DNA of 63,724 nucleotides from Bacteroidota bacterium (GTDB lineage: Bacteria; Bacteroidota; Ignavibacteria; Kapaibacteriales; DASPKH01). Shown piece by piece: positions 6,695 to 43,905 of the stretch (position 1 is its first letter; the number at the start of each line of letters is the position of its first letter). Under the pieces are notes generated by a model. It worked only from the letters and a program-made list of their open reading frames with translations. It was not told where the DNA came from and searched no databases. Location of the stretch: NCBI GenBank assembly GCA_040386315.1, contig JAZKFS010000030.1, positions 13,135-76,858 on the forward strand, given 5' to 3'. The translations under genes and the position numbers were made by a program.

Positions 6695-6710
6695 TTTTGA
6701 GTAATGTTTA

Positions 6711-6752
6711 GTTTTGAGTTTTAAATGTTGAGTTTTAAATGTTGAGTTTTTA
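6711..6752. repeat. short tandem repeat (about 14-nt unit GTTGAGTTTTAAAT, about 2.5 copies) in the bcp leader
   Basis: Read directly: gttttgagttttaaatgttgagttttaaatgttgagttttt. Confidence 0.7.
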
Positions 6753-6770
6753 AAAAGATACAGTATAATT

Positions 6771-6860
6771 GTCATTCCCGCGCAGGCGGGAATCCACACG
6801 TCAAAAGTTCGCGTAATCAATTGCGTCAAAAGATGGATTCCCGCCTGCGCGGGAATGACA
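6771..6860. repeat. palindromic intergenic element (arms GTCATTCCCGCGCAGGCGGGAATCC / GGATTCCCGCCTGCGCGGGAATGAC)
   Basis: Near-perfect 25-nt inverted arms. Each arm is itself a hairpin. The central spacer holds two CGTCAAAAG copies. Confidence 0.9.
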
Positions 6861-6870
6861 AACTTTTAAA

Positions 6871-6920
6871 ATCCAAAAATCTGTGAAATCCAAAAATCTG
6901 TGCAAATCCGTGATTCAGAA
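6871..6920. repeat. short dispersed or tandem repeat (AAATCCAAAAATCTGTG x2 ... CCGTGATTCAGA), related to 4021-4060
   Basis: 4021-4060 (atctgtgcaatcagagaaatccggtaatctgtgattcaga) shares the ATCTGTGCAA and TGTGATTCAGA-like blocks. Confidence 0.6.
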
Positions 6921-6937
6921 AAATCCTAATAAAAATC

Positions 6938-8971
6938 CTACTCCGCCTTCTTCGCCTTCACCGGCACAATCACTTCTCGCGCATTACTAAAATTATTCAT
7001 AATTTCCTGCTCAATCGGATGCCGAATAATTTCCGGCTGCGGTTCAGGCTCCTGCTGGATTTGCTCGACTTTTTCCTGCTCTTTAAAAACATTCGACGCA
7101 TTGGCCAGCGCATCCGCCGGACTTTGCGCAATATTTTCTTTTAAAAATTCTTTTACCGGTTCTTTTACAACTTCCTTCGCCGCTCCGTTTCCATTCGCTG
7201 AAGAACCATTTTTAAAACTTTCCTGCGGTAAAATTTCCTTCGCAACGCCATTTGCCATCGTGCCAACCGACAAATGCAGATTCACCGCTGCGCCAAAAAA
7301 ATTTGTCAGAGCTTCTATCAGCGCGCCTTTTACATCTTTAAAACTTTCCGATTCAAACTTACTGCCAAAATGCAGAATCACTTCGCCATTTAAAAACTGC
7401 GGTTTTAACGAAGCGGAATACTGGATCAAATATTGCAACGGCTTGTGTTCGGCTGCGAGATTTTGCACAAATTGCGGCCAGCCCGCCTGAAGTTTCCCTG
7501 CTGAAATATCACCTTTTAAAACTTCGCTTTCCGGTTTTTTAACAGTTTCCGGCGCAGGCGTTTCAATTTTACTTTCAGCTTTTAAAGAATTGTTTGTAAA
7601 ACCTTTTTCTTCACTTTTAAAAGCAACGTCCGGCGCGGCAATTTCACTTTTTACTTCTGCGGGAATATCAGTTTTTTTTACAACATTTTCCGGCTGTGCT
7701 GAATAACTTGGTGCTGTTTCTTTTAAAACCGGCTCGCTTTTAAAAGTTTGTGGCGGCGGAAATTGCTGTGATTGCGGAATATTTTGTTGGGAATTATTCT
7801 GCTGCGGAAATCCACCTTTTTTTAAAAGCTCGATTTCTTTTAAAAGCTGCGTGATTTCAATCGCCGAATCCATCGTCGCCATTTGCACGAGCGCTGTTTC
7901 AAAGCGGATGCGCGGCTGCGGAGCGTGTTTTAAAGCAGCTTCCGTGGATGTCGTCAGCGTCATTAAACGCAAAATATCGGGCTGAACAAAATGTGCCGCC
8001 TCAATTTCATATTTATCAAGGAAAAGCGACGACGTTTCGATCAGCTTCGTCGAACCCGTCGCGAGAATCGTGAGAATATTCCGGAAATGTTCCAGTAGCC
8101 CGTTTAAAAATTCCTGTGTGTCGTACCCTTTTGAAAGAACTTCGCGCGCGATGTCAAACATTTTCGGCACGTCGTGTTCGCGGATGGCGCGGCTCACGGT
8201 AAAGAAAAATTCCTGGTCAATCAGATGCAGCGCTTCATTCACATCGGAGTAATGAATATCGCGCCCGCAGAACGCGACAACCTGGTCGAAAACGCTCTGC
8301 GAATCACGCATCGAACCTTCCGCTTTTTTGGCAATTGCCACAAGTGATTGCTCATCCAGCTCAATTCCTTCCTTTCCTGCGATGTAGCGGATCTGCGCGA
8401 CAATCGTGTCAATTTCCATGCGGCGGAAATCAAAGCGCTGGCAGCGGCTGATAATCGTCGCGGGAAGCTTGTGCGGTTCGGTCGTGGCAAAAACAAAAAG
8501 CAGATGCGGCGGCGGCTCTTCAAGCGTTTTTAAAAGCGCGTTGAAGGCTGACGTGGAAAGCATGTGGACTTCGTCAATGATGTACATTTTGTACAGGCCG
8601 CTCACGGGCGGATATTTCGCGTTTTCGCGCAACTTGCGGATGTCGTCCACCGAGTTATTCGACGCGCCGTCAATCTCAATCACATCCATCGAACGCCCGT
8701 CCACGACTTCCTGACACGACGGGCAATTATTACATGGCTCGGCATCGTCGCCACGATTGGGACAGTTGACAGCGCGCGCCATCACGCGGGCGGTCGTCGT
8801 CTTGCCCACGCCACGCGGCCCATTAAAAAGGTACGCATGGTGAATCCGCCCCGAGCGCAACGCATTGCGCAGCGTCGTGGTGACGTGCTCCTGCCCCACG
8901 ATGTCTTCAAAGCGCATCGGACGCCACTTTCGCGCGGTAACGATAAATTGTTCGTGTGGATTTTCAGCCAT
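6938..8971 (-). CDS. dnaX: DNA polymerase III subunit tau/gamma
   Basis: 677 aa. Contains RKWRP..FEDIVGQEHV, GPRGVGKTT, the Zn module CNNCPSC, IIDEVHMLS and TTEPHKLPATIISRCQ, followed by a long low-complexity linker and a C-terminal tau-type region. Confidence 0.95.
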   Translation of the reverse strand: MAENPHEQFIVTARKWRPMRFEDIVGQEHVTTTLRNALRSGRIHHAYLFNGPRGVGKTTTARVMARAVNCPNRGDDAEPCNNCPSCQEVVDGRSMDVIEIDGASNNSVDDIRKLRENAKYPPVSGLYKMYIIDEVHMLSTSAFNALLKTLEEPPPHLLFVFATTEPHKLPATIISRCQRFDFRRMEIDTIVAQIRYIAGKEGIELDEQSLVAIAKKAEGSMRDSQSVFDQVVAFCGRDIHYSDVNEALHLIDQEFFFTVSRAIREHDVPKMFDIAREVLSKGYDTQEFLNGLLEHFRNILTILATGSTKLIETSSLFLDKYEIEAAHFVQPDILRLMTLTTSTEAALKHAPQPRIRFETALVQMATMDSAIEITQLLKEIELLKKGGFPQQNNSQQNIPQSQQFPPPQTFKSEPVLKETAPSYSAQPENVVKKTDIPAEVKSEIAAPDVAFKSEEKGFTNNSLKAESKIETPAPETVKKPESEVLKGDISAGKLQAGWPQFVQNLAAEHKPLQYLIQYSASLKPQFLNGEVILHFGSKFESESFKDVKGALIEALTNFFGAAVNLHLSVGTMANGVAKEILPQESFKNGSSANGNGAAKEVVKEPVKEFLKENIAQSPADALANASNVFKEQEKVEQIQQEPEPQPEIIRHPIEQEIMNNFSNAREVIVPVKAKKAE
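7668..7681 (-). promoter_or_regulatory. dnaX: putative dnaX recoding site (A8 slippery run plus -1 frame UGA)
   Basis: The coding strand reads GTA AAA AAA ACT GAT (V431 K432 K433 T434). A -1 slip on A-AAA-AAA reads AAC TGA. This position is equivalent to the E. coli gamma frameshift site. Confidence 0.5.
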
Positions 8972-13884: not shown

Positions 13885-13932
13885 TTTTTTAAAAGATTTC
13901 TTTTTAAAAGCGTGTTATGTTTTTAAAACGTA

Positions 13933-14328
13933 ATGCGCTTTTTTCTTTTAAAAAATATGAATTCCGACCTTTTTAAAAACTCGCCAAAACTGCCGAAAGA
14001 TTTTCACGAGCGCGTGTATGAGCTTGTCTGCCAGATCCCGTTTGGCAAAGTGACGACGTACGGGCACATCGCGCAGGCACTGGGTTTAAAATCTTCCGCA
14101 CGGATGGTTGGCTACGCACTGAATGCCGTGACTGACCGCGTCAATATTCCCTGCCACCGCGTGCTGAACCGCAACGGCGAGCTTTCCGGCAAAATGCACT
14201 TTGACACGCCGACGCTCATGCGCGAGCTGCTGGAAGGCGAAGGTGTGGAATTTGACGGTGATGCTGTAAATATGCAGAAGCACTTGTGGACGCCGCCGAT
14301 GCCGGATGATGATATGCGGCTGTTTTAA
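13933..14328 (+). CDS. MGMT-family (methylated-DNA-protein-cysteine methyltransferase DNA-binding domain) protein
   Basis: Contains VPFGKVTTYG-type IPFGKVTTYGHIA and the active-site-like IPCHRV. Only the C-terminal domain is present. An alternative start is ATG 13957. Confidence 0.8.
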   Translation: MRFFLLKNMNSDLFKNSPKLPKDFHERVYELVCQIPFGKVTTYGHIAQALGLKSSARMVGYALNAVTDRVNIPCHRVLNRNGELSGKMHFDTPTLMRELLEGEGVEFDGDAVNMQKHLWTPPMPDDDMRLF

Positions 14329-15063: not shown

Positions 15064-15093
15064 GAGCTTTTAAAAGAAATCGTTTTAAAAAGA

Positions 15094-15130
15094 AACCGGA
15101 ATAGTTTTTAAAAAGCTGTTCCGGTTTTTT
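15094..15130 (+). terminator. intrinsic terminator (member of the reused CCGGAATAG-TTTTTAAAA-CTGNTCCGG module)
   Basis: Reads AACCGGAATAGTTTTTAAAAAGCTGTTCCGGTTTTTT. Confidence 0.8.
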
Positions 15131-15245
15131 GTTTTTAAAAAGATCCTTTTTTAAGAAAACTTTTAAAAATTTTTTGCTTTAAAGAGAAAATTCCGTAAAT
15201 AGCTGAAAATTCACCTTCACTTTTTAAAACTAAGAGGAAACAGCT

Positions 15246-21327: not shown

Positions 21328-21359
21328 CTATAGTCTTTTGAAAGTCTAATTCCATTCTT

Positions 21360-21442
21360 GTAGGGGTGGGTTTAAAACCCGCCCTGCGTCAGAAGATCAC
21401 GCTTGCTGCTCAAAAGAGGACAGGTTTTAAACCTGCCCCTAC
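21360..21442. repeat. palindromic intergenic element (GTAGGGGTGGGTTTAAAACCCGCCC ... GGACAGGTTTTAAACCTGCCCCTAC)
   Basis: Inverted arms, each a self-hairpin. The centre contains CTGCGTCAGAAG (the core on the other strand). Confidence 0.85.
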
Positions 21443-21523
21443 GAAGAAAGAAATCTTTTCGACTTTTAAAAGAACGCTACTACATTTTTAAAACTTTTTA
21501 AAAGATCATCTACTGATTTCAGA

Positions 21524-32142: not shown

Positions 32143-33648
<1,506 letters not shown>

Positions 33649-33919
33649 TTATTTAAGACTCTTTTATCCTTTTAAAAGCCGCATTTTTAAAACGGCGTTT
33701 TTCATCTGCAACAAAATTATGGGTTTTTAAAAAAGGAAAATATGATATTTGTCAGGTGGGAGGGATTTTTAAAATGCTTTTAAAAACAAAGGTTTTAAAA
33801 TGCAAAAAGGCAACTCAATAAGAATTACCTTTTAAAAACTTTCAATGCGGTATAGCAGAAATCGCTGCGCGCATAAATGCATTCAGCGACTTCGCACAAA
33901 TAATTATTTCTTCATCTAA

Positions 33920-37551: not shown

Positions 37552-38643
37552 ATGAAGAACGTAAAATTTGTTAGCACGTGTGAAGTGCAAAAGGGCTTCG
37601 CTGCTGCTGTCCGCCGGAATGTAAATAATTATTTTAAAGAGCAGGGGATTTCGCCAAAGGGAAATTCCACGATGGCTTTTAAAACGGTGGCGATGCTTTC
37701 GATGTATATCCTTCCTTTTTTGGCTCTTCTTTTTGTTCCGATGAATCCGTGGTTTGGCCTTCCGCTGGTGATGCTGATGGGAGTCGGCAGCGCGGGAATC
37801 GGCATGTCGGTAATGCACGATGCGGTTCATGGCTCATATTCTAACAATGAAAAATTAAATAGAAATCTTGGACGCACAATATACATGTTGGGAAATAGCG
37901 TTTTCACGTGGAGATTGCAACACAATGTTTTCCATCACGCGTACACGAATATTGATGGTTTTGACGACGACATCGCCGGTGCGAGAATCATGCGTCTGTC
38001 CGAGCACGCCCCGCTTTTAAAAATCCATCGCTTTCAACATATTCATGCGTTTTTCTTCTACGGATTTCTCACAATTGCGAAGTTTTTTAAAGATTTCGTG
38101 CAGCTGCGCCAATTTCAAAAATTGGGTGCAATTGAAAGCCGTGTGAGCGTGAAAAAAGAATATGCAAAAATGACAATTGTCAAAATCGTGTATTTTCTCT
38201 ACATCGTCGGTTTGCCGCTTTGGCTGACGGAATTTACGTGGTGGCAGGTCGCGATTGGTTTTTTCATGCTGCACTGGACTGCGGGATTTATTCTCAGCAC
38301 GATCTTCCAGATGGCGCATATTGTGGAAGGCGCGGAGCAATTCCAGGCGAATGAGCAGGGAATAATTGAAAAAGATTGGGCTGTACACGAGTTGCTTACG
38401 ACGGCAAATTTTGCGCGTAATAACCGATTTTTAAACTGGTATATAGGCGGGCTGAATTTTCAAATTGAACATCACCTTTTTCCAAAAATCTGTCACGTTC
38501 ATTATAGCAAAATTTCTCCAATCGTTGAAAAAACAGCGAAGGAATTTGGGATTCCGTATAATGTAAAACCAACGTTTTTAAAAGCATTTGCTTCGCATGT
38601 TCGGCGGTTGAAGGAATTGGGACGGACGCCGGCGATTGGGTAG
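37552..38643 (+). CDS. membrane fatty-acid desaturase (front-end-type histidine boxes)
   Basis: His boxes HDAVHGS, HNVFHHAYTN and QIEHHLFP (Q in the third box), with several TM segments. Start taken at ATG 37552. Confidence 0.85.
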   Translation: MKNVKFVSTCEVQKGFAAAVRRNVNNYFKEQGISPKGNSTMAFKTVAMLSMYILPFLALLFVPMNPWFGLPLVMLMGVGSAGIGMSVMHDAVHGSYSNNEKLNRNLGRTIYMLGNSVFTWRLQHNVFHHAYTNIDGFDDDIAGARIMRLSEHAPLLKIHRFQHIHAFFFYGFLTIAKFFKDFVQLRQFQKLGAIESRVSVKKEYAKMTIVKIVYFLYIVGLPLWLTEFTWWQVAIGFFMLHWTAGFILSTIFQMAHIVEGAEQFQANEQGIIEKDWAVHELLTTANFARNNRFLNWYIGGLNFQIEHHLFPKICHVHYSKISPIVEKTAKEFGIPYNVKPTFLKAFASHVRRLKELGRTPAIG

Positions 38644-38663
38644 AGGTTTTTAAAAGTTCTCAC

Positions 38664-38780
38664 GGCCACTCACACTGAGCTTGTCGAAGTGCGCGATAGC
38701 AGTTCGCGTTAGTTTTTAAAAAGGTCATTCTGTCAAAACACCTGTCGAAAAATTTCGTGCTTCGACTACGCTCAGCATGA
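38664..38780. repeat. palindromic intergenic element (CACTGAGCTTGTCGAAGTGCG ... CGTGCTTCGACTACGCTCAGCATG)
   Basis: Imperfect inverted arms read directly. A different arm family from the GTCATTCC elements. Confidence 0.75.
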
Positions 38781-38863
38781 AATTTTAAAAAGAGATTTTA
38801 AAAAATAGAAGTTTTAAAACCTTTTTTTATTTGCCCGGACAAGCCTTGTCACCCCACCTGCCG

Positions 38864-38871
38864 TATATTTG
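38864..38871 (+). promoter_or_regulatory. possible Bacteroidota-type -7 promoter element (TATATTTG = TAnnTTTG)
   Basis: Exact match to the TAnnTTTG consensus, 25 nt upstream of ATG 38897. The -33 TTG spacing is not convincing. Confidence 0.3.
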
Positions 38872-38896
38872 AAAAGATTATCTTTTAAAAAAAATC

Positions 38897-39178
38897 ATGA
38901 TAAATGAAGGCCCGCCAAAGAAAATCATCCGGCGCGAAACGCAGACGTACATTCCCGGTAAAGTTTTAATGCGCACGCAAAATACTGCGGAATTTGTCGG
39001 GCTTTTAAAAGAACTCGGTTTTGACGGAGAGCTGGAGCTGGAATATTTGCAGGTGTATTATCACAAATTATATCTTTTTACAAATCCACTTCGCACTTCT
39101 GATTACGAATTTGATTATTTTGACGGCTGGTATTATGTGAAGCAGTTGGAGAAAAGGATAGTCGAATACGAATATTAA
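38897..39178 (+). CDS. hypothetical small protein preceding the WYL regulator
   Basis: 93-aa ORF ending 15 nt before the WYL gene. No family recognised. Confidence 0.5.
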   Translation: MINEGPPKKIIRRETQTYIPGKVLMRTQNTAEFVGLLKELGFDGELELEYLQVYYHKLYLFTNPLRTSDYEFDYFDGWYYVKQLEKRIVEYEY

Positions 39179-39193
39179 CTTTTTAAAAATCCC

Positions 39194-40174
39194 ATGAACG
39201 AAACGCAATCCATTTATCGCCCGGAGCTTCACCGCTTGTTCGTGCTTCTCGGCAAACTGCGCCGTAAGGAAAAATTCACGGCAGATTCGCTTGCAGATGA
39301 GTTGCAGGTGAGCGAACGCACGATACGGCGAGACATCAATTACCTGCGTGATATGCTGCAATCTCCGATAGAATTTGACCGCTGGAAACGTTCGTTTGTG
39401 CTGCATGGCGATATCGCGGATTTCCCGATGCTGCAAGTGAGCACGGGCGAAATGCTTTCGCTCTATCTTGGTCAGGCGGCGCTCCAGTCGTTTGGTGCGG
39501 GGCCTCATGCGGAATATCTTGCAGCGGCAATTCAAAAGCTCACTGCTCAGCTCCCGCAACAAATGACCGTCGGACTGGATACGCTCAGCCAGAGCATTTC
39601 CCTTCATGCCGAGCCATTGACTGCCGTTTCAGGTGAGGTCTTTAAAACTCTTGCCGAGGCGTGGCATCTGCGGCGAACAGTTGAGATGCGCTACCGCAAA
39701 AGCGACAGCCCGACGGCTGAACTGCGCCGCGTACAGCCGTATTATCTCTATCACAACGCCGGGCGCTGGTATCTTTTCGGCTACTGTTTAAAAAGCGGGG
39801 AAATCAAGACATTTCGCCTCGACAGGATGGAAGCCGTAACGATGACCTCCGACACGTTTCCTGAGCCCGATTTCGACGTTCACGCCTTTTTAAAAAACTC
39901 CTTTGGCATCTACAACGGCGGTGAGCCAAGTGATATAAAAATCCGCTTTATGGCATACGGCGCGCAGCTCGCCCGCGAAAAGCAATGGCACCCGACGCAG
40001 CTTTTAAAAGAACTGCCCGACGGCGAAGTGGAAATGCAGCTCAACGTGGTGATAAGCTCCGACCTCTACCGCTGGATACAGAGTTTCGGCGCAGAAGCCG
40101 AAGTGCTCCAGCCGCCCGAAGCCCGCGAGGAATTACGCCGCGTAGCGAGGATTATGAATGAGATGTACGGTTAG
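39194..40174 (+). CDS. WYL-domain transcriptional regulator (HTH-WYL-WCX architecture)
   Basis: 326 aa. The N-terminal HTH is FTADSLADELQVSERTIRRDINYLRD. The WYL core is RVQPYYLYHNAGRWYLFGYCLKSGEIKTFRLDRM. The C-terminal region is WCX-like. Confidence 0.88.
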   Translation: MNETQSIYRPELHRLFVLLGKLRRKEKFTADSLADELQVSERTIRRDINYLRDMLQSPIEFDRWKRSFVLHGDIADFPMLQVSTGEMLSLYLGQAALQSFGAGPHAEYLAAAIQKLTAQLPQQMTVGLDTLSQSISLHAEPLTAVSGEVFKTLAEAWHLRRTVEMRYRKSDSPTAELRRVQPYYLYHNAGRWYLFGYCLKSGEIKTFRLDRMEAVTMTSDTFPEPDFDVHAFLKNSFGIYNGGEPSDIKIRFMAYGAQLAREKQWHPTQLLKELPDGEVEMQLNVVISSDLYRWIQSFGAEAEVLQPPEAREELRRVARIMNEMYG

Positions 40175-40248
40175 GTTTTTAAAAGGGGTTTTGGTAAGTT
40201 GTGGGAGAATTTTGTTTTAAAAACTTTTTTAAAAATTGGGGTGTGAAG

Positions 40249-40983
40249 ATGAAAGTGGTTTTATTAAGAGTTGGAGTAGATTCATCCTTCGGTGAAAGTC
40301 ATGGGCCATTATTTAAAGATAATAAATTTGAATTTATTCCTATCCCAGATCCTTATAATATTGGTTCTAGAAAATATGGAAATACATCCTCTGCATCTAA
40401 TAAATCTAAAAATTTAATCGACTATTTCCCTACGTCAAAAATGAAAGATAAATCTATTCATTGGGACCCGGAATTTGAAACGAAAACTTATGGAGAGCCT
40501 AATCCTCATAGAAGAAGATTAAGAGAATTAGAGGCTGGTGATATTCTAGGATTTTATTCAGGACTCCAAAGTTTTAAAGATAAATATGATTCTAAAGGAA
40601 ACCCAGAACTCTATTTGATAGGATACTTTGAAGTGGAAAAGGTTTGGATGAAGGAAAGAGATAAACTTCCCGATGATTCGATTATGAATAATTTCCATAT
40701 AAAATATATGGATGAATTAAACAAAGAAAACAAGGAAAAGAAGCTAATAGTGATAAAAGGGACAGCTAAAAGTAGGCTCTACAAGCAAGCTTATCAAATT
40801 AGCCGGAAAGTAAGTTGTTTAGATAAAAATAAAAAGCTTTATACTGATTACCGCTTAACTTATGAAATGGAAAAGGTTTTTGGACAACTCACTGGAAAAG
40901 GCTCAATTAAACGAAGTAGTGCTAGATTAATTAATGAAAATTTTGTTGATACGGCAGCGCGTTTTCTGAAAAGTTTAAATTAA
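40249..40983 (+). CDS. hypothetical protein A of the WYL-linked cassette (AT-rich; possible PUA-like barrel)
   Basis: 244 aa from ATG 40249. Conspicuously low G+C with no TTTTAAAA. LRVGVDSSFGESHGPLF..FEFIPIPD and AGDILGFYSG...LYLIGYFEVEKV only loosely resemble EVE/ASCH-type patterns. Confidence 0.6.
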   Translation: MKVVLLRVGVDSSFGESHGPLFKDNKFEFIPIPDPYNIGSRKYGNTSSASNKSKNLIDYFPTSKMKDKSIHWDPEFETKTYGEPNPHRRRLRELEAGDILGFYSGLQSFKDKYDSKGNPELYLIGYFEVEKVWMKERDKLPDDSIMNNFHIKYMDELNKENKEKKLIVIKGTAKSRLYKQAYQISRKVSCLDKNKKLYTDYRLTYEMEKVFGQLTGKGSIKRSSARLINENFVDTAARFLKSLN

Positions 40984-40990
40984 GAACCCT

Positions 40991-41880
40991 ATGTCAATCT
41001 GCAACATCTGTAATCAGGAAATGCTCACTGCCAGTTCCTGCGAAAACAAAACGGTCTTAGGGCTTGATGCTATTCGTTTCGGCGATGAGCGCGATGTGTT
41101 TATTGAGGGGCGGCAAGTTGCAATGAAGCCGGTGCCGACCGAGAAGTGCCGTGATTGCGGTGTGTCGCAAGGCGGCTATCATCATCGCGGCTGCTGTGTG
41201 GAGCAATGTCCTAATTGTTGGGAGCAGGTTTTTTGTTGCGGCTGTTTGGATGCCGAAATGCTTCTTTCACTATCATTTGAAGACTTTGTAGATAACTTCG
41301 ACTATGAAGGCGCAATTATCCTGCTCGAAGGCAAGCGCGACGTTTTGCCGGAGCTACAGGAAAAGCTGACCGCGCTTGGCGCAAAGCTCTGCCGCGAAAC
41401 GAAGCACGCACGGTTCAGGAGTGGTAATGCTTCCGGTGCTGACGAGTTCTTTTCTAAAGGTGTTGCAAGCGTTGATGCGGGCCGGCTGGAAGTCATTACG
41501 CCATTTGACAATCATCGGAAGGCGAAAAATGCTGCGCACACAACCTATTCGCTTGATGCAATTGATTTAGTACATGAACCCGAAGTAGTGTACCAGACAA
41601 GGGCGAATAAAAAAATCGAAAAACTTGTAGATTCGTACGTGCAGGGAATTAACAATAAATTAACAATAAAGTAACGATAAAAGCTGCGTATCTGCTGCGC
41701 GATACGGTAAAAGTAATCGGCGCTCAAAGTAGTGGAATTCCGAGCACAGACTTTGCAATTTTCTACGACGACCTTTCTGCTCCGCGTCAAGGCGGAACCG
41801 GCCATACAATGGGAATTTGTGATGCCAATAACGTTCCGTTTGTCAATCAGGAAGTCTGGTTGAAGTGGCTGGAAGATTGA
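40991..41880 (+). pseudogene. Cys-rich zinc-ribbon + SLOG (Smf/DprA-LOG-like) protein, frameshifted by an 11-bp tandem duplication
   Basis: The ORF 40991-41674 has CxxC pairs (CNIC, CRDC, CPNC, CCGC) and RSGNASGADEFF. After the duplication the +2 frame continues open to TGA 41878-41880. It encodes ...AAYLLRDTVKVIG...PRQGGTGHTMGIC...VPFVN, the second SLOG glycine loop. Confidence 0.7.
41649..41670 (+). repeat. perfect 11-bp tandem duplication TTAACAATAAA x2
   Basis: 41649-41659 and 41660-41670 are identical. Deleting one copy fuses the two reading frames into a 292-aa ORF. Confidence 0.95.
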
Positions 41881-41919
41881 TTGCTAAAGTACAAGACATA
41901 AAGATTTTAAAGTTTGCTC

Positions 41920-43557
41920 ATGAAGCTCACAGGCAATACCATTCTCATTCCTGATGCAAATTCTCCGCTCATGGTCGAGCTTGTGAAGCGGCTGTATGCG
42001 TTTGGCAATACGCTTGTTATCGGAAGCCATAGTCCTGAAGATATTCGCAAAGCGTGCCGTCCGAAAATTGCCGGGAGCAAAGTTTTTAAAAAGGAATTCG
42101 ATAAATATTCCAGCCGGGATCGCGAAAAATTTGTGCAATGGGCTTTAAAAACTCATCCTGATATAAACGGTGCTTTTCTGCTTCCGTGGGGTTTTAAAAC
42201 GGACGCGCAGTTCCATCGTCCCGTGGCCCATTGGATGATTGGGCCGCAGCTGTCGGATACCATTGTCCAGCCGCTTCACTTTACGGGATTGCTCGCCGCG
42301 CATCTGGCTTCAAAAAAGGAAAGTTTTATCGCGTTTTTCTCCGGCAAACCTTTTTCCGAACAGCCGCTTGTTGATGCGGCACACGCGGCGATTCACGCAT
42401 TTGCCGCATCGGCACGTTCGCAGCTTGAGGATACTTCTGTCCGGCTTTTTGAATTTGAATATCTCCAGAACAATGACGGCGCGGAAGCATATAAGGGCGA
42501 TGAGCTGAAAAAATTTTGCGCTAACGTGCTTCACGCCTTACAGCAAAATTCCTTTAAAAATCCCGTACATCCGCACAATGACATGCAAGCTCCTAATGGA
42601 AATGACTATCGCTTTACAACACTTCATTCCGTTCCAAAAGCAATACTCTTCGGCGTGGCTATCGGCGACGCGCTCGGCGTTCCTGTTGAATTTTTAAGCC
42701 GAGAAGAGCTTTTAAAAAATCCCATTACCGGAATGTGCGGCTACGGCACGCACAGCCAGCCGCCAGGCACGTGGTCGGACGATAGCTCGCTTACATTTTG
42801 CCTTGCGGAAAGTCTGCTGAAAGGCTATGATGTAAAGTCAATGGCGGGAAATTTCCTGATGTGGCTGCATTACGCCTCGTGGACGGCGCATGATGAAGTT
42901 TTCGACGTTGGCATTACGACGCAGGGCGCTTTGCAGAATCTTGCTGATGGCGCAGAACCCACAATGTCGGGACTCGCAGACGAAAATAGCAACGGCAATG
43001 GTTCGCTTATGCGGATTTCGCCGCTGCTGCTGGAAATTCACGACAAGCCGATTAAAGAACGCTTTTTAAAAACGCGGGAAGTTTCGTTCATCACGCACCG
43101 GCATATCCGCTCGGTGATTTCGTGTTTTATGTACCTGGAATTTGCGCGGGAGATCCTTTTAAAAAAGAATAAATTTACGGCCTTTAAAAAGGTGCAAAAA
43201 TCCGTTCCTGAGTTTTTAAAAAATGAGAATATTGATAAAAGGGAAATTGCAATTTTCGACCGCGTTTTAAAAGGCGATATTTCAGAATTGCCGGAAAGCG
43301 AGATTAAAAGCAGCGGCTACGTCGTTCATACGCTGGAAGCAAGTATTTGGTGCTTTTTAAAAACGGATTCGTACAAAAGCGCGGTTTTAAAAGCGGTGAA
43401 TCTTGGCGATGACACGGATACAACGGGCGCGGTAACCGGCGGACTGGCAGGGCTGTATTACGGCGTGGAAGAGCCATTGGATGATCCAGAATGGCGGATT
43501 GCGCAGCACGAAAGAATTGAAGCTCTTGCTGAAAAGCTTCAAGAAAAATATTTTTAA
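41920..43557 (+). CDS. degenerate Rossmann (SDR-like) N-terminal domain fused to ADP-ribosylglycohydrolase (ARH/DraG family)
   Basis: The C-terminal half has FGVAIGDALGVPVEF, WSDDSSLT, GNGSLMRISP and GDDTDTTGAVTGGLAG (ARH metal-binding motifs). The N-terminal about 230 aa has an SDR-like beta-alpha pattern but lacks GxxxGxG and YxxxK. Confidence 0.85.
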   Translation: MKLTGNTILIPDANSPLMVELVKRLYAFGNTLVIGSHSPEDIRKACRPKIAGSKVFKKEFDKYSSRDREKFVQWALKTHPDINGAFLLPWGFKTDAQFHRPVAHWMIGPQLSDTIVQPLHFTGLLAAHLASKKESFIAFFSGKPFSEQPLVDAAHAAIHAFAASARSQLEDTSVRLFEFEYLQNNDGAEAYKGDELKKFCANVLHALQQNSFKNPVHPHNDMQAPNGNDYRFTTLHSVPKAILFGVAIGDALGVPVEFLSREELLKNPITGMCGYGTHSQPPGTWSDDSSLTFCLAESLLKGYDVKSMAGNFLMWLHYASWTAHDEVFDVGITTQGALQNLADGAEPTMSGLADENSNGNGSLMRISPLLLEIHDKPIKERFLKTREVSFITHRHIRSVISCFMYLEFAREILLKKNKFTAFKKVQKSVPEFLKNENIDKREIAIFDRVLKGDISELPESEIKSSGYVVHTLEASIWCFLKTDSYKSAVLKAVNLGDDTDTTGAVTGGLAGLYYGVEEPLDDPEWRIAQHERIEALAEKLQEKYF

Positions 43558-43573
43558 ATTCGGGTTTTAAAAT

Positions 43574-43666
43574 TGTCATTGCGAGCGGAGCGTGGTAATC
43601 GCGAATACTTCGGACGCGTCATTCTGTATTTGCGATTGCCACGTCGGAAGACCTCCTCGCAATGAC
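43574..43666. repeat. palindromic intergenic element (TGTCATTGCGAGCGGAGCGTGGTAATCGCGAA ... TTGCGATTGCCACGTCGGAAGACCTCCTCGCAATGAC)
   Basis: Inverted arms with a central CGGACGCGTCA core. Confidence 0.85.
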
Positions 43667-43905
43667 GAAATATAAATTAAGGTTTTAAAAGCTGCATCTT
43701 TTAAAACCTTTTTTTCTGCCAAAATTGCTTTTTAGGCCTGACAGTTTTTCAAAGTCCTGCCACGGCTTGCGCCAATATTTCCGAAAAATGCTTTTAAAAA
43801 GCTGAAAAACGAGTTTGGCACACTTCTGCTATAAAGATTCTTCGACACTTTACACCGTCAAAAAAAGTAACAGTTTTTAAAAGATTTTTATCAGGAGTTT
43901 TAAAA

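What the first reader, a model, noticed from the sequence alone, without database searches (positions are those of the whole stretch)
41649..41670. Perfect 11-bp tandem duplication (TTAACAATAAA x2) frameshifts the SLOG gene between its two nucleotide-binding loops
The tracked ORF ends ...GINNKLTIK* at 41674. The +2 frame is open from 41659 to TGA 41878-41880. It encodes INNKVTIKAAYLLRDTVKVIGAQSSGIPSTDFAIFYDDLSAPRQGGTGHTMGICDANNVPFVNQEVWLKWLED, which is clearly the missing C-terminal half of the SLOG domain (GGTGHT loop).

Removing one 11-nt copy joins the frames seamlessly into a 292-aa protein. Both frames even read I-N-N-K across the repeat. An exact tandem duplication is a typical replication-slippage product and can revert. 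It could therefore be an inactivating mutation that relieves toxicity of the cassette, or a reversible ON/OFF switch. It is less likely to be an assembly error.
Basis: seen in the sequence. Interest (0 to 1): 0.7.

Follow-up and report, generated by a model that had tools for sequence, protein, structure and literature searches.

The report
Frameshifting 11-bp duplication in SLOG gene
An exact 11-base tandem duplication has recently broken a DprA/LOG-like (SLOG) gene in a small WYL–Nmad3–SLOG–ADP-ribosylglycohydrolase cassette of an uncultured Ignavibacteria-like bacterium; this is an ordinary slippage mutation that can in principle revert, and nothing shows it is a programmed switch.

Summary
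TTAACAATAAA occurs twice in tandem at 41649-41670. It stops the ORF at 41674 (227 aa) and puts the last 70 codons in the +2 frame. Removing one copy gives a 292-aa protein.

Three orthologous contigs (87-88% amino-acid identity) carry a single copy and encode an intact 292-aa protein. All 86 other related loci examined read straight through the site. Every invariant residue from K227 to the GGTGHT loop lies after the shift.

An independent Logan assembly is 100% identical to the window over 4580 bp and has the same two-copy allele, so an assembly error is unlikely.

Fold search and a PHROG hit place the protein in the SLOG (DprA/LOG) superfamily.

The out-of-frame tail still shows strong purifying selection (dN/dS 0.05; 7 synonymous versus 2 non-synonymous changes on the window's own branch). 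The lesion is therefore young.

An older imperfect third copy, GTAACGATAAA, provides the misalignment substrate for slippage.

The evidence points away from a programmed switch or recoding: orthologues lack the repeat, there is no slippery heptamer, and there is no stimulatory RNA structure. Read-level copy-number heterogeneity could not be tested.

Verdict: a real, recent loss-of-function allele of a known mutational kind. Interest is low to moderate.

The parts
41649..41659 (+). Copy 1 of the 11-nt unit TTAACAATAAA
41660..41670 (+). Copy 2 of the unit. This is the extra 11 nt relative to the orthologues; which of the two copies is 'new' cannot be decided.
   Evidence: 11-nt gap in L001 and L088
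41671..41681 (+). Pre-existing imperfect third copy GTAACGATAAA (9 of 11 matches; 11 of 13 when the flanking AA is included). Inferred misalignment partner for the slippage event.
   Evidence: 3.2 copies, 91% matches; the slippage model itself is inference
41672..41674 (+). Premature TAA stop created by the frameshift
40991..41674 (+). Truncated ORF of 227 aa. It holds the Cys/His-rich N-terminal extension (residues 1-90) and the first two-thirds of the SLOG domain, including the GNASGAD loop (nt 41423-41443).
41659..41880 (+). Out-of-frame (+2) remnant encoding the last 70 residues of the SLOG domain: helix 226-239, strand 251-255, and the GGTGHT loop at nt 41791-41808. There is no ATG, GTG or TTG before M270, so it cannot be translated on its own.
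   Evidence: no ORF of at least 40 aa in this frame
38897..39178 (+). orf93, the conserved first gene of the cassette (89% identical in L088); no family match
39194..40174 (+). HTH-WYL-WCX transcription regulator of the cassette
   Evidence: WYL E 9e-23; 81% identical in L088
40201..40983 (+). Nmad3-domain protein. Its G+C is about 31% against about 50% for its neighbours, and it is only 24% identical to the Nmad3 of the orthologous cassette.
41914..43557 (+). ADP-ribosylglycohydrolase (residues 244-519) with an extra 236-aa N-terminal domain of unknown family that the orthologous cassette lacks
43679..43710 (+). Terminator-like 13-bp hairpin followed by a T-run after the last cassette gene

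Best explanation
A real and evolutionarily recent slipped-strand tandem duplication of 11 bp has frameshifted the Zn-ribbon-SLOG gene of a four- to five-gene cassette (orf93, WYL regulator, Nmad3, SLOG, ADP-ribosylglycohydrolase).

Shown:
- The duplication exists in two assemblies.
- Orthologues have one copy and an intact 292-aa protein.
- The truncated 227-aa product lacks about 25 invariant family residues, a core beta-strand and the GGTGHT loop.
- The downstream piece has no start codon of its own.
- The downstream piece shows no relaxation of selection.

Inferred:
- In this lineage, synonymous drift produced two adjacent imperfect 11-nt repeats, TTAACAATAAA and GTAACGATAAA, which encode INNK-VTIK.
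- During synthesis of the minus strand, the nascent copy of the first repeat mispaired with the second repeat on the template and the first repeat was copied again, giving R1-R1-R2.
- The result is a loss-of-function allele (a young pseudogene) that is dominant or fixed in the sampled population.
- Slippage between the two now-perfect copies could delete one and restore the gene exactly, but this is a property of any tandem duplication, not evidence of a designed switch.
For: - Sequence and frames.
- The same allele in a Logan contig (SRR26324626) that is 100% identical to the window over 4580 bp.
- The window's protein is on record from both NCBI and Logan.
- Single-copy orthologues: L001 and L088/L089, aligned with an 11-nt gap.
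- 1330 homologues found. The 20-sequence alignment shows invariant K227, Y230, R233, D234, T235, K237, G240 and GGTGHT, all after the shift.
- 86 of 87 related loci give one tblastn segment (HSP) across the site; the only split one is the window's twin.
- PHROG 768 matches residues 114-282 as one stretch.
- The AF2 model (pLDDT 84-98 over the SLOG part) places a helix, a core strand and the second loop after the break.
- dN/dS against L001 is 0.066 before the shift and 0.052 after it.
- On the window's own branch, the post-shift segment has 7 synonymous and 2 non-synonymous codon changes.
- Chance expectation is 0.03 such duplications per window.
Against: - No reads could be inspected, so the allele frequency in the population is unknown. 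If both assemblies derive from the same library, a library artefact is not formally excluded.
- The slippage pathway is inferred from the sequence only.
- Loss of function is inferred from conservation and the model, not measured.
- A low level of -1 slippage at A-AAG-TAA could still yield some full-length protein.
Confidence: 0.8

Rival explanations
1. Selected, reversible ON/OFF (contingency) switch. The population toggles the SLOG gene, and hence the cassette, by gaining and losing one 11-bp copy. This would resemble the tandem duplications in pneumococcal cap3A, which turn the capsule off and revert by precise loss.
For: - The two copies are perfect and a third imperfect copy follows, so slippage in both directions is plausible.
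- Loss of one copy restores the frame exactly.
- The tail is undecayed.
- There is precedent for duplication/reversion switching: Waite et al. 2001, as summarised in PMC11163986.
- The cassette looks like a conflict system, a class of gene often switched or lost.
Against: - The orthologues have no repeat tract at this site: GTTAATAACCGG and TATTAATAACAGG precede GTAAC.
- There are only two exact units, far fewer than in classical contingency loci.
- No one-copy version of this strain's protein exists in the collection, and both assemblies of the strain are two-copy.
- Undecayed sequence is equally expected for a very recent plain mutation.
Confidence: 0.1
2. Sequencing, library or assembly artefact: the genome really carries one copy.
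For: The window is from a metagenome-derived contig. No reads were available. The two assemblies may rest on the same library.
Against: - Two different assemblies give the identical allele.
- From general knowledge, a de Bruijn-graph contig contains only k-mers present in the reads. The novel junction AATAAATTAACAA must therefore be in the reads.
- An exact 11-nt tandem insertion is not a typical base-calling or consensus error.
Confidence: 0.04
3. Translational recoding. A -1 slip of the P-site Lys-tRNA from AAG (41669-41671) to AAA (41668-41670) while the TAA stop waits in the A site would read on into the +2 frame. This would give a 296-aa protein with an LTIK insertion, so the gene would stay partly functional.
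For: - The 13-nt overlap window (41659-41671) ends in A-AAG-TAA.
- From general knowledge, Lys-tRNA is slippage-prone on A-AAG (E. coli dnaX, B. subtilis cdd), and stop codons favour P-site slippage.
Against: - There is no X-XXY-YYZ heptamer; the preceding codon ATA cannot re-pair.
- There is no stimulatory RNA structure downstream (MFE z-score +0.54).
- Orthologues use a single frame, so nothing here is conserved as a recoding site.
- The effect of a 4-aa insertion is unknown.
Confidence: 0.03
4. Footprint of a transposable element that made an 11-bp target-site duplication and then excised, leaving both copies.
For: From general knowledge, some IS families (for example IS4-like elements) make 10-13-bp target duplications. 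The window contains MITE/REP-like elements.
Against: - No element remnant lies between the copies.
- From general knowledge, clean two-copy footprints are unusual in bacteria.
- The adjacent imperfect third copy gives a simpler slippage explanation.
- The 11-mer is not an insertion hotspot elsewhere in the window.
Confidence: 0.03

Closest known systems
Slipped-strand tandem duplications that inactivate a gene and can revert (pneumococcal cap3A type; Waite et al. 2001, cited through PMC11163986)
   Same: A short exact tandem duplication inside an ORF causes a frameshift and premature stop. Precise loss of one copy restores the gene.
   Different: No reversion or population heterogeneity has been shown here. 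Only a single event in a single population is known. The organism and the gene are unrelated to the pneumococcal case.
SLOG superfamily (SMF/DprA, LOG, YpsA, MoCo carrier protein, ThsA sensor domain)
   Same: - The predicted fold is Rossmannoid, and the best structural matches are DprA, TM1055/LOG, MoCo carrier protein, ShosA, the ThsA SLOG domain and phage DprA-like/YspA proteins.
- It has a Gly-rich loop (GNASGAD) and a GGTGHT loop.
- PHROG 768 'DprA-like' matches at E 1.2e-8.
   Different: - No Pfam, NCBIfam or PADLOC model matches, and sequence search of the PDB finds nothing.
- It belongs to an unnamed family of about 197 aa that is widespread in Bacteroidota-like MAGs.
- This subfamily adds a 90-aa Cys/His-rich N-terminal extension, seen in only three populations.
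ART-less, ARG-centred conflict systems with WYL or Nudix regulators (Iyer et al. 2022, PMC9503650, section 3.8)
   Same: - An ADP-ribosylglycohydrolase gene under a WYL-HTH regulator, with no ADP-ribosyltransferase detected in the cassette.
- A conserved core with rapidly exchanged accessory modules: the Nmad3 gene has been replaced and an N-terminal domain added to the ARG.
   Different: - No phosphatase, chaperone or REase partner was found.
- The partners here are Nmad3 and a Zn-ribbon-SLOG protein, neither of which is mentioned in that section.
- The described systems were reported in actinobacteria, planctomycetes and proteobacteria, not in Ignavibacteria-like genomes.
Simple-sequence-repeat contingency loci (Neisseria/Haemophilus type phase variation)
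   Same: Repeat copy number sets the reading frame of a gene of a kind that is plausibly under fluctuating selection.
   Different: The unit is 11 nt and there are only two exact copies. The tract is absent from the orthologues. No variation in copy number has been seen.

Membership tests
SLOG superfamily | Rossmannoid three-layer alpha/beta fold whose nearest structural neighbours are DprA, LOG or YpsA | tested here: met
   AF2 model with pLDDT 84-98 over residues 91-292. Foldseek against PDB: DprA 5mll E 1.5e-5, TM1055 1rcu, LOG, MoCo carrier protein, ShosA, ThsA SLOG. Foldseek against BFVD: phage DprA-like and YspA SLOG proteins down to E 1.7e-10.
SLOG superfamily | Conserved glycine-rich loop after an early strand, plus a second GGxGT-type loop | tested here: met
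   Invariant G145, N146, A147, G149, D151 and G264, G265, T266, G267, H268, T269 in 20 sequences. Their roles in nucleotide binding are inferred by analogy and were not tested.
SLOG superfamily | Significant sequence-profile match to a curated SLOG family | tested here: inconclusive
   PHROG 768 'DprA-like' matches at E 1.2e-8 over residues 114-282. There is no Pfam, NCBIfam or PADLOC hit and no PDB sequence hit.
Pseudogene / loss-of-function allele | Reading frame disrupted relative to intact orthologues | tested here: met
   P0001 and P0121 are 292 aa with 100% coverage. The orthologue DNA has an 11-nt gap at the site. 86 of 86 other loci are contiguous.
Pseudogene / loss-of-function allele | The product lacks residues that the family conserves | tested here: met
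   About 25 invariant columns, from K227 to W289 and including GGTGHT, lie after the shift. The remnant has no start codon.
Pseudogene / loss-of-function allele | Relaxed selection or secondary lesions in the disabled part | tested here: not met
   dN/dS after the shift is 0.052. The window's own branch has 7 synonymous and 2 non-synonymous changes there. No further stops occur in the remnant. This is read as a very recent event.
Phase-variable contingency locus | Repeat tract conserved in orthologues or strains, with varying copy number | tested here: not met
   L001 and L088 have a single, non-repetitive sequence at the site. The collection holds neither a one-copy nor a three-copy allele of this strain.
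Phase-variable contingency locus | Copy-number heterogeneity within a population | not testable with these tools
   No reads were available. The two assemblies agree on two copies.
Programmed -1 ribosomal frameshift | Slippery heptamer X-XXY-YYZ in the overlap of the two frames | tested here: not met
   The overlap 41659-41671 reads ATTAACAATAAAG. It contains only A-AAG before the TAA stop.
Programmed -1 ribosomal frameshift | Downstream stimulatory RNA structure, and conservation of the two-frame arrangement | tested here: not met
   MFE z-score is +0.54 for 41640-41730. Orthologues use a single frame.
ARG-centred ART-less conflict system (Iyer et al. 2022) | ARG gene with a WYL or Nudix one-component regulator and no adjacent ART or sirtuin | tested here: met
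   ADP_ribosyl_GH E 2e-71 and WYL E 9e-23. No ART or SIR2 hit in any cassette protein. orf93 and the ARG N-terminal domain remain unassigned.
ARG-centred ART-less conflict system (Iyer et al. 2022) | Coupled phosphatase (rhodanese-phosphatase, calcineurin-like, HD or HAD) or chaperone module | tested here: not met
   No such Pfam domain occurs in the cassette. The paper reports a phosphatase in about 55% of these systems, so this feature is not obligatory.
ARG-centred ART-less conflict system (Iyer et al. 2022) | Anti-phage or de-ADP-ribosylating activity | not testable with these tools
   This needs experiment. The system is also only a prediction in the source paper.

The most novel reading that the evidence does not exclude
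The 11-bp unit acts as a genuine contingency switch. Cells of this Ignavibacteria-like population flip a WYL-regulated Nmad3-SLOG-ARG conflict cassette between OFF (two copies) and ON (one copy) by slippage. This would be a cap3A-style duplication/reversion switch applied to an uncharacterised ADP-ribose or nucleotide-centred immunity-like system in an uncultured lineage.
Probability: 0.08. Interest if true: 0.55.

Novelty: new member of a known kind. Interest (0 to 1): 0.3.

Why it matters
In itself this is a textbook slippage frameshift.

Its practical value is for annotation. The locus should be called as one disrupted 292-aa gene, not as a 227-aa protein followed by an unannotated gap.

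It also marks a rare cassette (orf93, WYL, Nmad3, Zn-ribbon-SLOG, ARG) seen in only three populations, with a natural knock-out allele in one of them. If the cassette proves to be a conflict system, then the intact versions (L088/L089 and L001) and the broken version (this window) form a ready-made comparison. The very recent inactivation would be one more example of rapid loss or switching of such systems.

The roughly 197-aa SLOG family behind it (at least 1330 clusters, no curated model) deserves a family definition.

Tried and rejected
- Exact-flank DNA searches that allowed one to three copies found nothing in genome contigs or metagenome contigs. No other strain of this population could be compared.
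- A metagenome scan with the N-terminal extension (alignment A3) gave 600 pattern hits but no true relative. A conserved 33-nt DNA pattern found nothing in genome contigs. The 292-aa subfamily is therefore rare in the collections searched.
- Pfam, NCBIfam, PADLOC and PDB sequence searches of the repaired protein gave no usable hit. Assignment to a superfamily needed the structure model and PHROGs.
- L020 and L025 appeared to have N-terminal extensions, but these were spurious upstream alignment. Their genes are ordinary 196-aa forms.
- Two functional polypeptides from a split gene: rejected, because the remnant has no start codon before M270.
- Transcriptional slippage at the A7 run (41613-41619): rejected, because the +2 frame has stops between that run and 41659.
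- The papers that define Nmad3 and SLOG (Iyer 2013; Burroughs 2015) are not held in the library. Statements about them rest on Pfam names and on later papers from the same group.
- Absence of TTTTAAAA from the Nmad3-SLOG segment, as a sign of foreign origin: not conclusive, because other genes in the window (DnaK, the 1415-aa ORF) show equally long gaps.

Full report
**1. The observation**

The window reads ...GTGCAGGGAA TTAACAATAAA TTAACAATAAA GTAACGATAAA AGC.... The 11-mer TTAACAATAAA sits at 41649-41659 and is repeated exactly at 41660-41670. Exact period-11 identity covers 41647-41670.

Tandem Repeats Finder reports 3.2 copies over 41647-41681 at 91% matches. The third copy, GTAACGATAAA, matches 9 of 11 positions.

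The ORF that starts at 40991 ends at the TAA at 41672-41674 after 227 codons (...GINNKLTIK*). The +2 frame from 41659 is open to the TGA at 41878-41880 and encodes INNKVTIKAAYLLRDTVKVIGAQSSGIP...GGTGHT...WLKWLED. Removing one copy gives one 292-codon ORF.

The repeat is not a chance feature. Markov simulations of the window expect 0.03 exact tandem duplications with units of 11-30 nt. The 11-mer is not a dispersed repeat.

**2. It is an insertion into a gene that is otherwise contiguous**

A search with the repaired protein found 1330 relatives.

- The best is P0001: 292 aa, 88% identity, 100% coverage. A member of its cluster, P0121 (292 aa), lies on a 615-kb JGI contig and on a Logan contig.
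- About 197-aa relatives, 53-63% identical, cover residues ~93-292.

In a 20-sequence alignment the site falls inside YVxG-x-N-x-VTIKAAYLLRDTVKV. The invariant residues K227, Y230, R233, D234, T235, K237, G240, F251, F254-D256, P261, G264-T269, C273, Q283, W286 and W289 all lie after the shift.

The single split locus is L002, the window's twin.

At the DNA level both orthologues align with an 11-nt gap exactly here:

- window: GGGAATTAACAATAAATTAACAATAAAGTAACGATAAAAGC
- L001: GGGAGTTAATAACCGGGTAACGATAAAAGC
- L088: AGGTATTAATAACAGGGTAACCATCAAAGC

**3. It is very probably not an artefact**

The 227-aa product is on record from both NCBI and Logan. The Logan contig from SRR26324626 (10,482 bp) is 100% identical to window 37991-42570 over the 4580 bp held, including both copies.

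From general knowledge, a de Bruijn-graph contig contains only k-mers that occur in reads. The new junction must therefore be present in reads. I could not see the reads, so allele frequency is unknown.

**4. What the gene is**

No Pfam, NCBIfam or PADLOC model matches the repaired protein, and the PDB sequence search gave nothing.

An AlphaFold2 model built on the alignment is confident over residues 91-292 (block pLDDT 84-98) and unreliable over residues 1-87. Foldseek gave two sets of matches:

- PDB: Helicobacter DprA (E 1.5e-5), TM1055, LOG proteins, MoCo carrier proteins, ShosA, the ThsA SLOG domain and TRPM N-terminal domains.
- Viral library: phage DprA-like, LOG, DUF2493 and 'YspA cpYpsA-related SLOG' proteins, down to E 1.7e-10.

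PHROG 768, 'DprA-like DNA recombination-mediator protein', matches residues 114-282 in one stretch at E 1.2e-8.

The call 'SLOG superfamily' is therefore supported. The GNASGAD loop (145-151) and the GGTGHT loop (264-269) are the family's two invariant Gly-rich loops, and the break lies between them. After the break the model places helix 226-239, core strand 251-255, the GGTGHT loop with helix 264-275, and the C-terminal helix. The 227-aa product cannot form the complete fold.

The remnant has no ATG, GTG or TTG before M270, so it is not a separately translated second gene.

**5. Age of the lesion**

Against L001, dN/dS is 0.066 for the SLOG part before the shift and 0.052 after it, with dS of 0.67-0.80.

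On the window's own branch (positions where L001 and L088 agree and the window differs), the post-shift 70 codons carry 7 synonymous and 2 non-synonymous codon changes. Under neutrality roughly three-quarters would be non-synonymous. By my own binomial estimate from the site counts, P is about 8e-4.

There are no secondary stops. The segment was therefore in frame for nearly all of this lineage's history, and the duplication is recent.

**6. How it arose (inference)**

The one-copy ancestor of this lineage already had two adjacent imperfect repeats: AA-TTAACAATAAA-GTAACGATAAA. These match at 11 of 13 positions when the flanking AA is included. The orthologues lack this similarity, so it arose by drift in this lineage.

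During minus-strand synthesis, the nascent complement of the first repeat can mispair with the second repeat on the template. The first repeat is then copied a second time. This yields exactly the observed order R1-R1-R2.

The reverse slip between the two now-perfect copies would restore the gene.

**7. Genomic setting**

The gene sits in a tight same-strand cassette:

- orf93, 38897-39178
- HTH-WYL-WCX regulator, 39194-40174
- Nmad3-domain protein, 40201-40983
- the SLOG gene, 40991-41880 when repaired
- a 547-aa protein, 41914-43557, whose residues 244-519 are an ADP-ribosylglycohydrolase
- a terminator-like hairpin, 43679-43710

The same cassette, with an intact 292-aa SLOG gene, occurs in L088/L089. 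Identities to the window are orf93 89%, WYL 81%, SLOG 87% and ARG 80%. The short L001 contig also has an Nmad3 gene directly upstream.

DNA homology runs from about 38834 to 43558 and the flanking genes differ, so this is a small island of about 4.7 kb.

Two modules have been exchanged:

- The Nmad3 genes are only 24% identical, and the window's copy has 31% G+C against about 50% for its neighbours.
- The window's ARG carries an extra 236-aa N-terminal domain with no family match.

A conserved core with exchangeable modules, a WYL regulator and an ARG without an ADP-ribosyltransferase resembles the ARG-centred systems that Iyer et al. 2022 predict to counter viral ADP-ribosylation (PMC9503650, section 3.8). 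Their usual phosphatase or chaperone partners are absent here, however, and Nmad3 and SLOG are not part of their description.

By contrast, the roughly 197-aa relatives are mostly stand-alone genes in varied contexts. About 11 of the 80 genome loci have a WYL regulator nearby.

The host is an uncultured Ignavibacteria/Kapabacteria-like bacterium; the best DnaK identity to any GTDB species representative is 78%.

**8. Rivals**

*Selected ON/OFF switch.* This is possible in principle. Tandem duplications in pneumococcal cap3A switch the capsule off and revert (Waite et al. 2001, via PMC11163986). Three points argue against it here:

- the orthologues have no tract at the site;
- there are only two exact copies;
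- no one-copy allele of this strain is in the collection.

*Programmed -1 frameshifting.* This is not supported. There is no heptamer, no RNA structure (z-score +0.54) and no conservation of a two-frame arrangement. Incidental P-site slippage at A-AAG-TAA could give traces of a 296-aa product with an LTIK insertion.

*Transposon footprint.* This cannot be formally excluded, but it is less economical than slippage given the adjacent imperfect repeat.

*Artefact.* Unlikely, as set out in section 3.

**9. Verdict**

The identification as SLOG, the position between the two loops and the frameshift reading are all supported.

The best explanation is a young loss-of-function allele produced by slipped-strand duplication. 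It is revertible in principle. The 'toxicity relief' and 'programmed switch' ideas remain untested, and the comparison with the orthologues argues against a conserved switch.

This is a new instance of a well-known kind of mutation, in a rare and uncharacterised cassette. Interest is low to moderate.

Noticed in passing
whole window (e.g. 13887-13978, 15068-15229, 33639-33837); also L088: The palindromic octamer TTTTAAAA occurs 310 times in 63.7 kb, about one per 205 bp, against 12.2 +/- 3.2 in dinucleotide shuffles. Its density is one per 87 bp outside long ORFs and one per 333 bp inside them, where it never sits in the stop-creating frame. The related genome L088 shows the same density (112 in 20.9 kb), while the few other Ignavibacteria and Bacteroidota loci checked have almost none; the Ignavibacteria ones are short DnaK loci, and the window's own DnaK gene also lacks the motif, so they are weak comparators. 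This resembles a lineage-specific 'highly iterated palindrome' of the kind known as HIP1 in cyanobacteria. Its function is unknown.
   Followed up: partly
40201-40983: The Nmad3 gene has about 31% G+C against about 50% in the flanking cassette genes. It is only 24% identical to the Nmad3 of the otherwise 80-89% identical cassette in L088. This looks like an in-place replacement of one module by a distant homologue.
   Followed up: partly
41914-42622: The window's ADP-ribosylglycohydrolase carries an extra 236-aa N-terminal domain that is absent from the orthologous 315-aa ARG of L088. It has no Pfam, NCBIfam or PHROG match.
   Followed up: partly
homologues of window 41260-41880 (P0003-P0120, L008-L087): The ~197-aa SLOG family behind this gene has at least 1330 clusters at 90% identity and is 50-63% identical across many Bacteroidota, Ignavibacteria and Chlorobi-like MAGs, yet it has no Pfam, NCBIfam or PADLOC model. 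Most members are stand-alone genes. About 11 of the 80 genome loci have a WYL regulator nearby, and one member lies next to a ParE-like toxin gene.
   Followed up: partly
6700-6940 and 43575-43668: The intergenic DNA carries MITE/REP-like elements with terminal inverted repeats. One is TGTCATTCCCGCGCAGGCGGGAATCC...GGATTCCCGCCTGCGCGGGAATGACA at about 6771-6861; the other is GTCATTGCGAG...CTCGCAATGAC at about 43575-43668. There are also exact tandem repeats of 14 nt x 2.6 (6714-6750) and 17 nt x 2.3 (6869-6909).
   Followed up: no
38897-39178: orf93 is a 93-aa ORF with no family match. It is 89% identical in L088 and sits in the same position, upstream of the WYL regulator, so it is probably part of the cassette.
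   Followed up: no
L088 7685-7778 vs window 21358-21443: In L088, a ~94-nt stretch in the orf93-WYL spacer, where a 44-aa ORF is called, matches window 21358-21443 on the opposite strand at 77% identity. This is probably a small dispersed repeat element shared by the two genomes.
   Followed up: no
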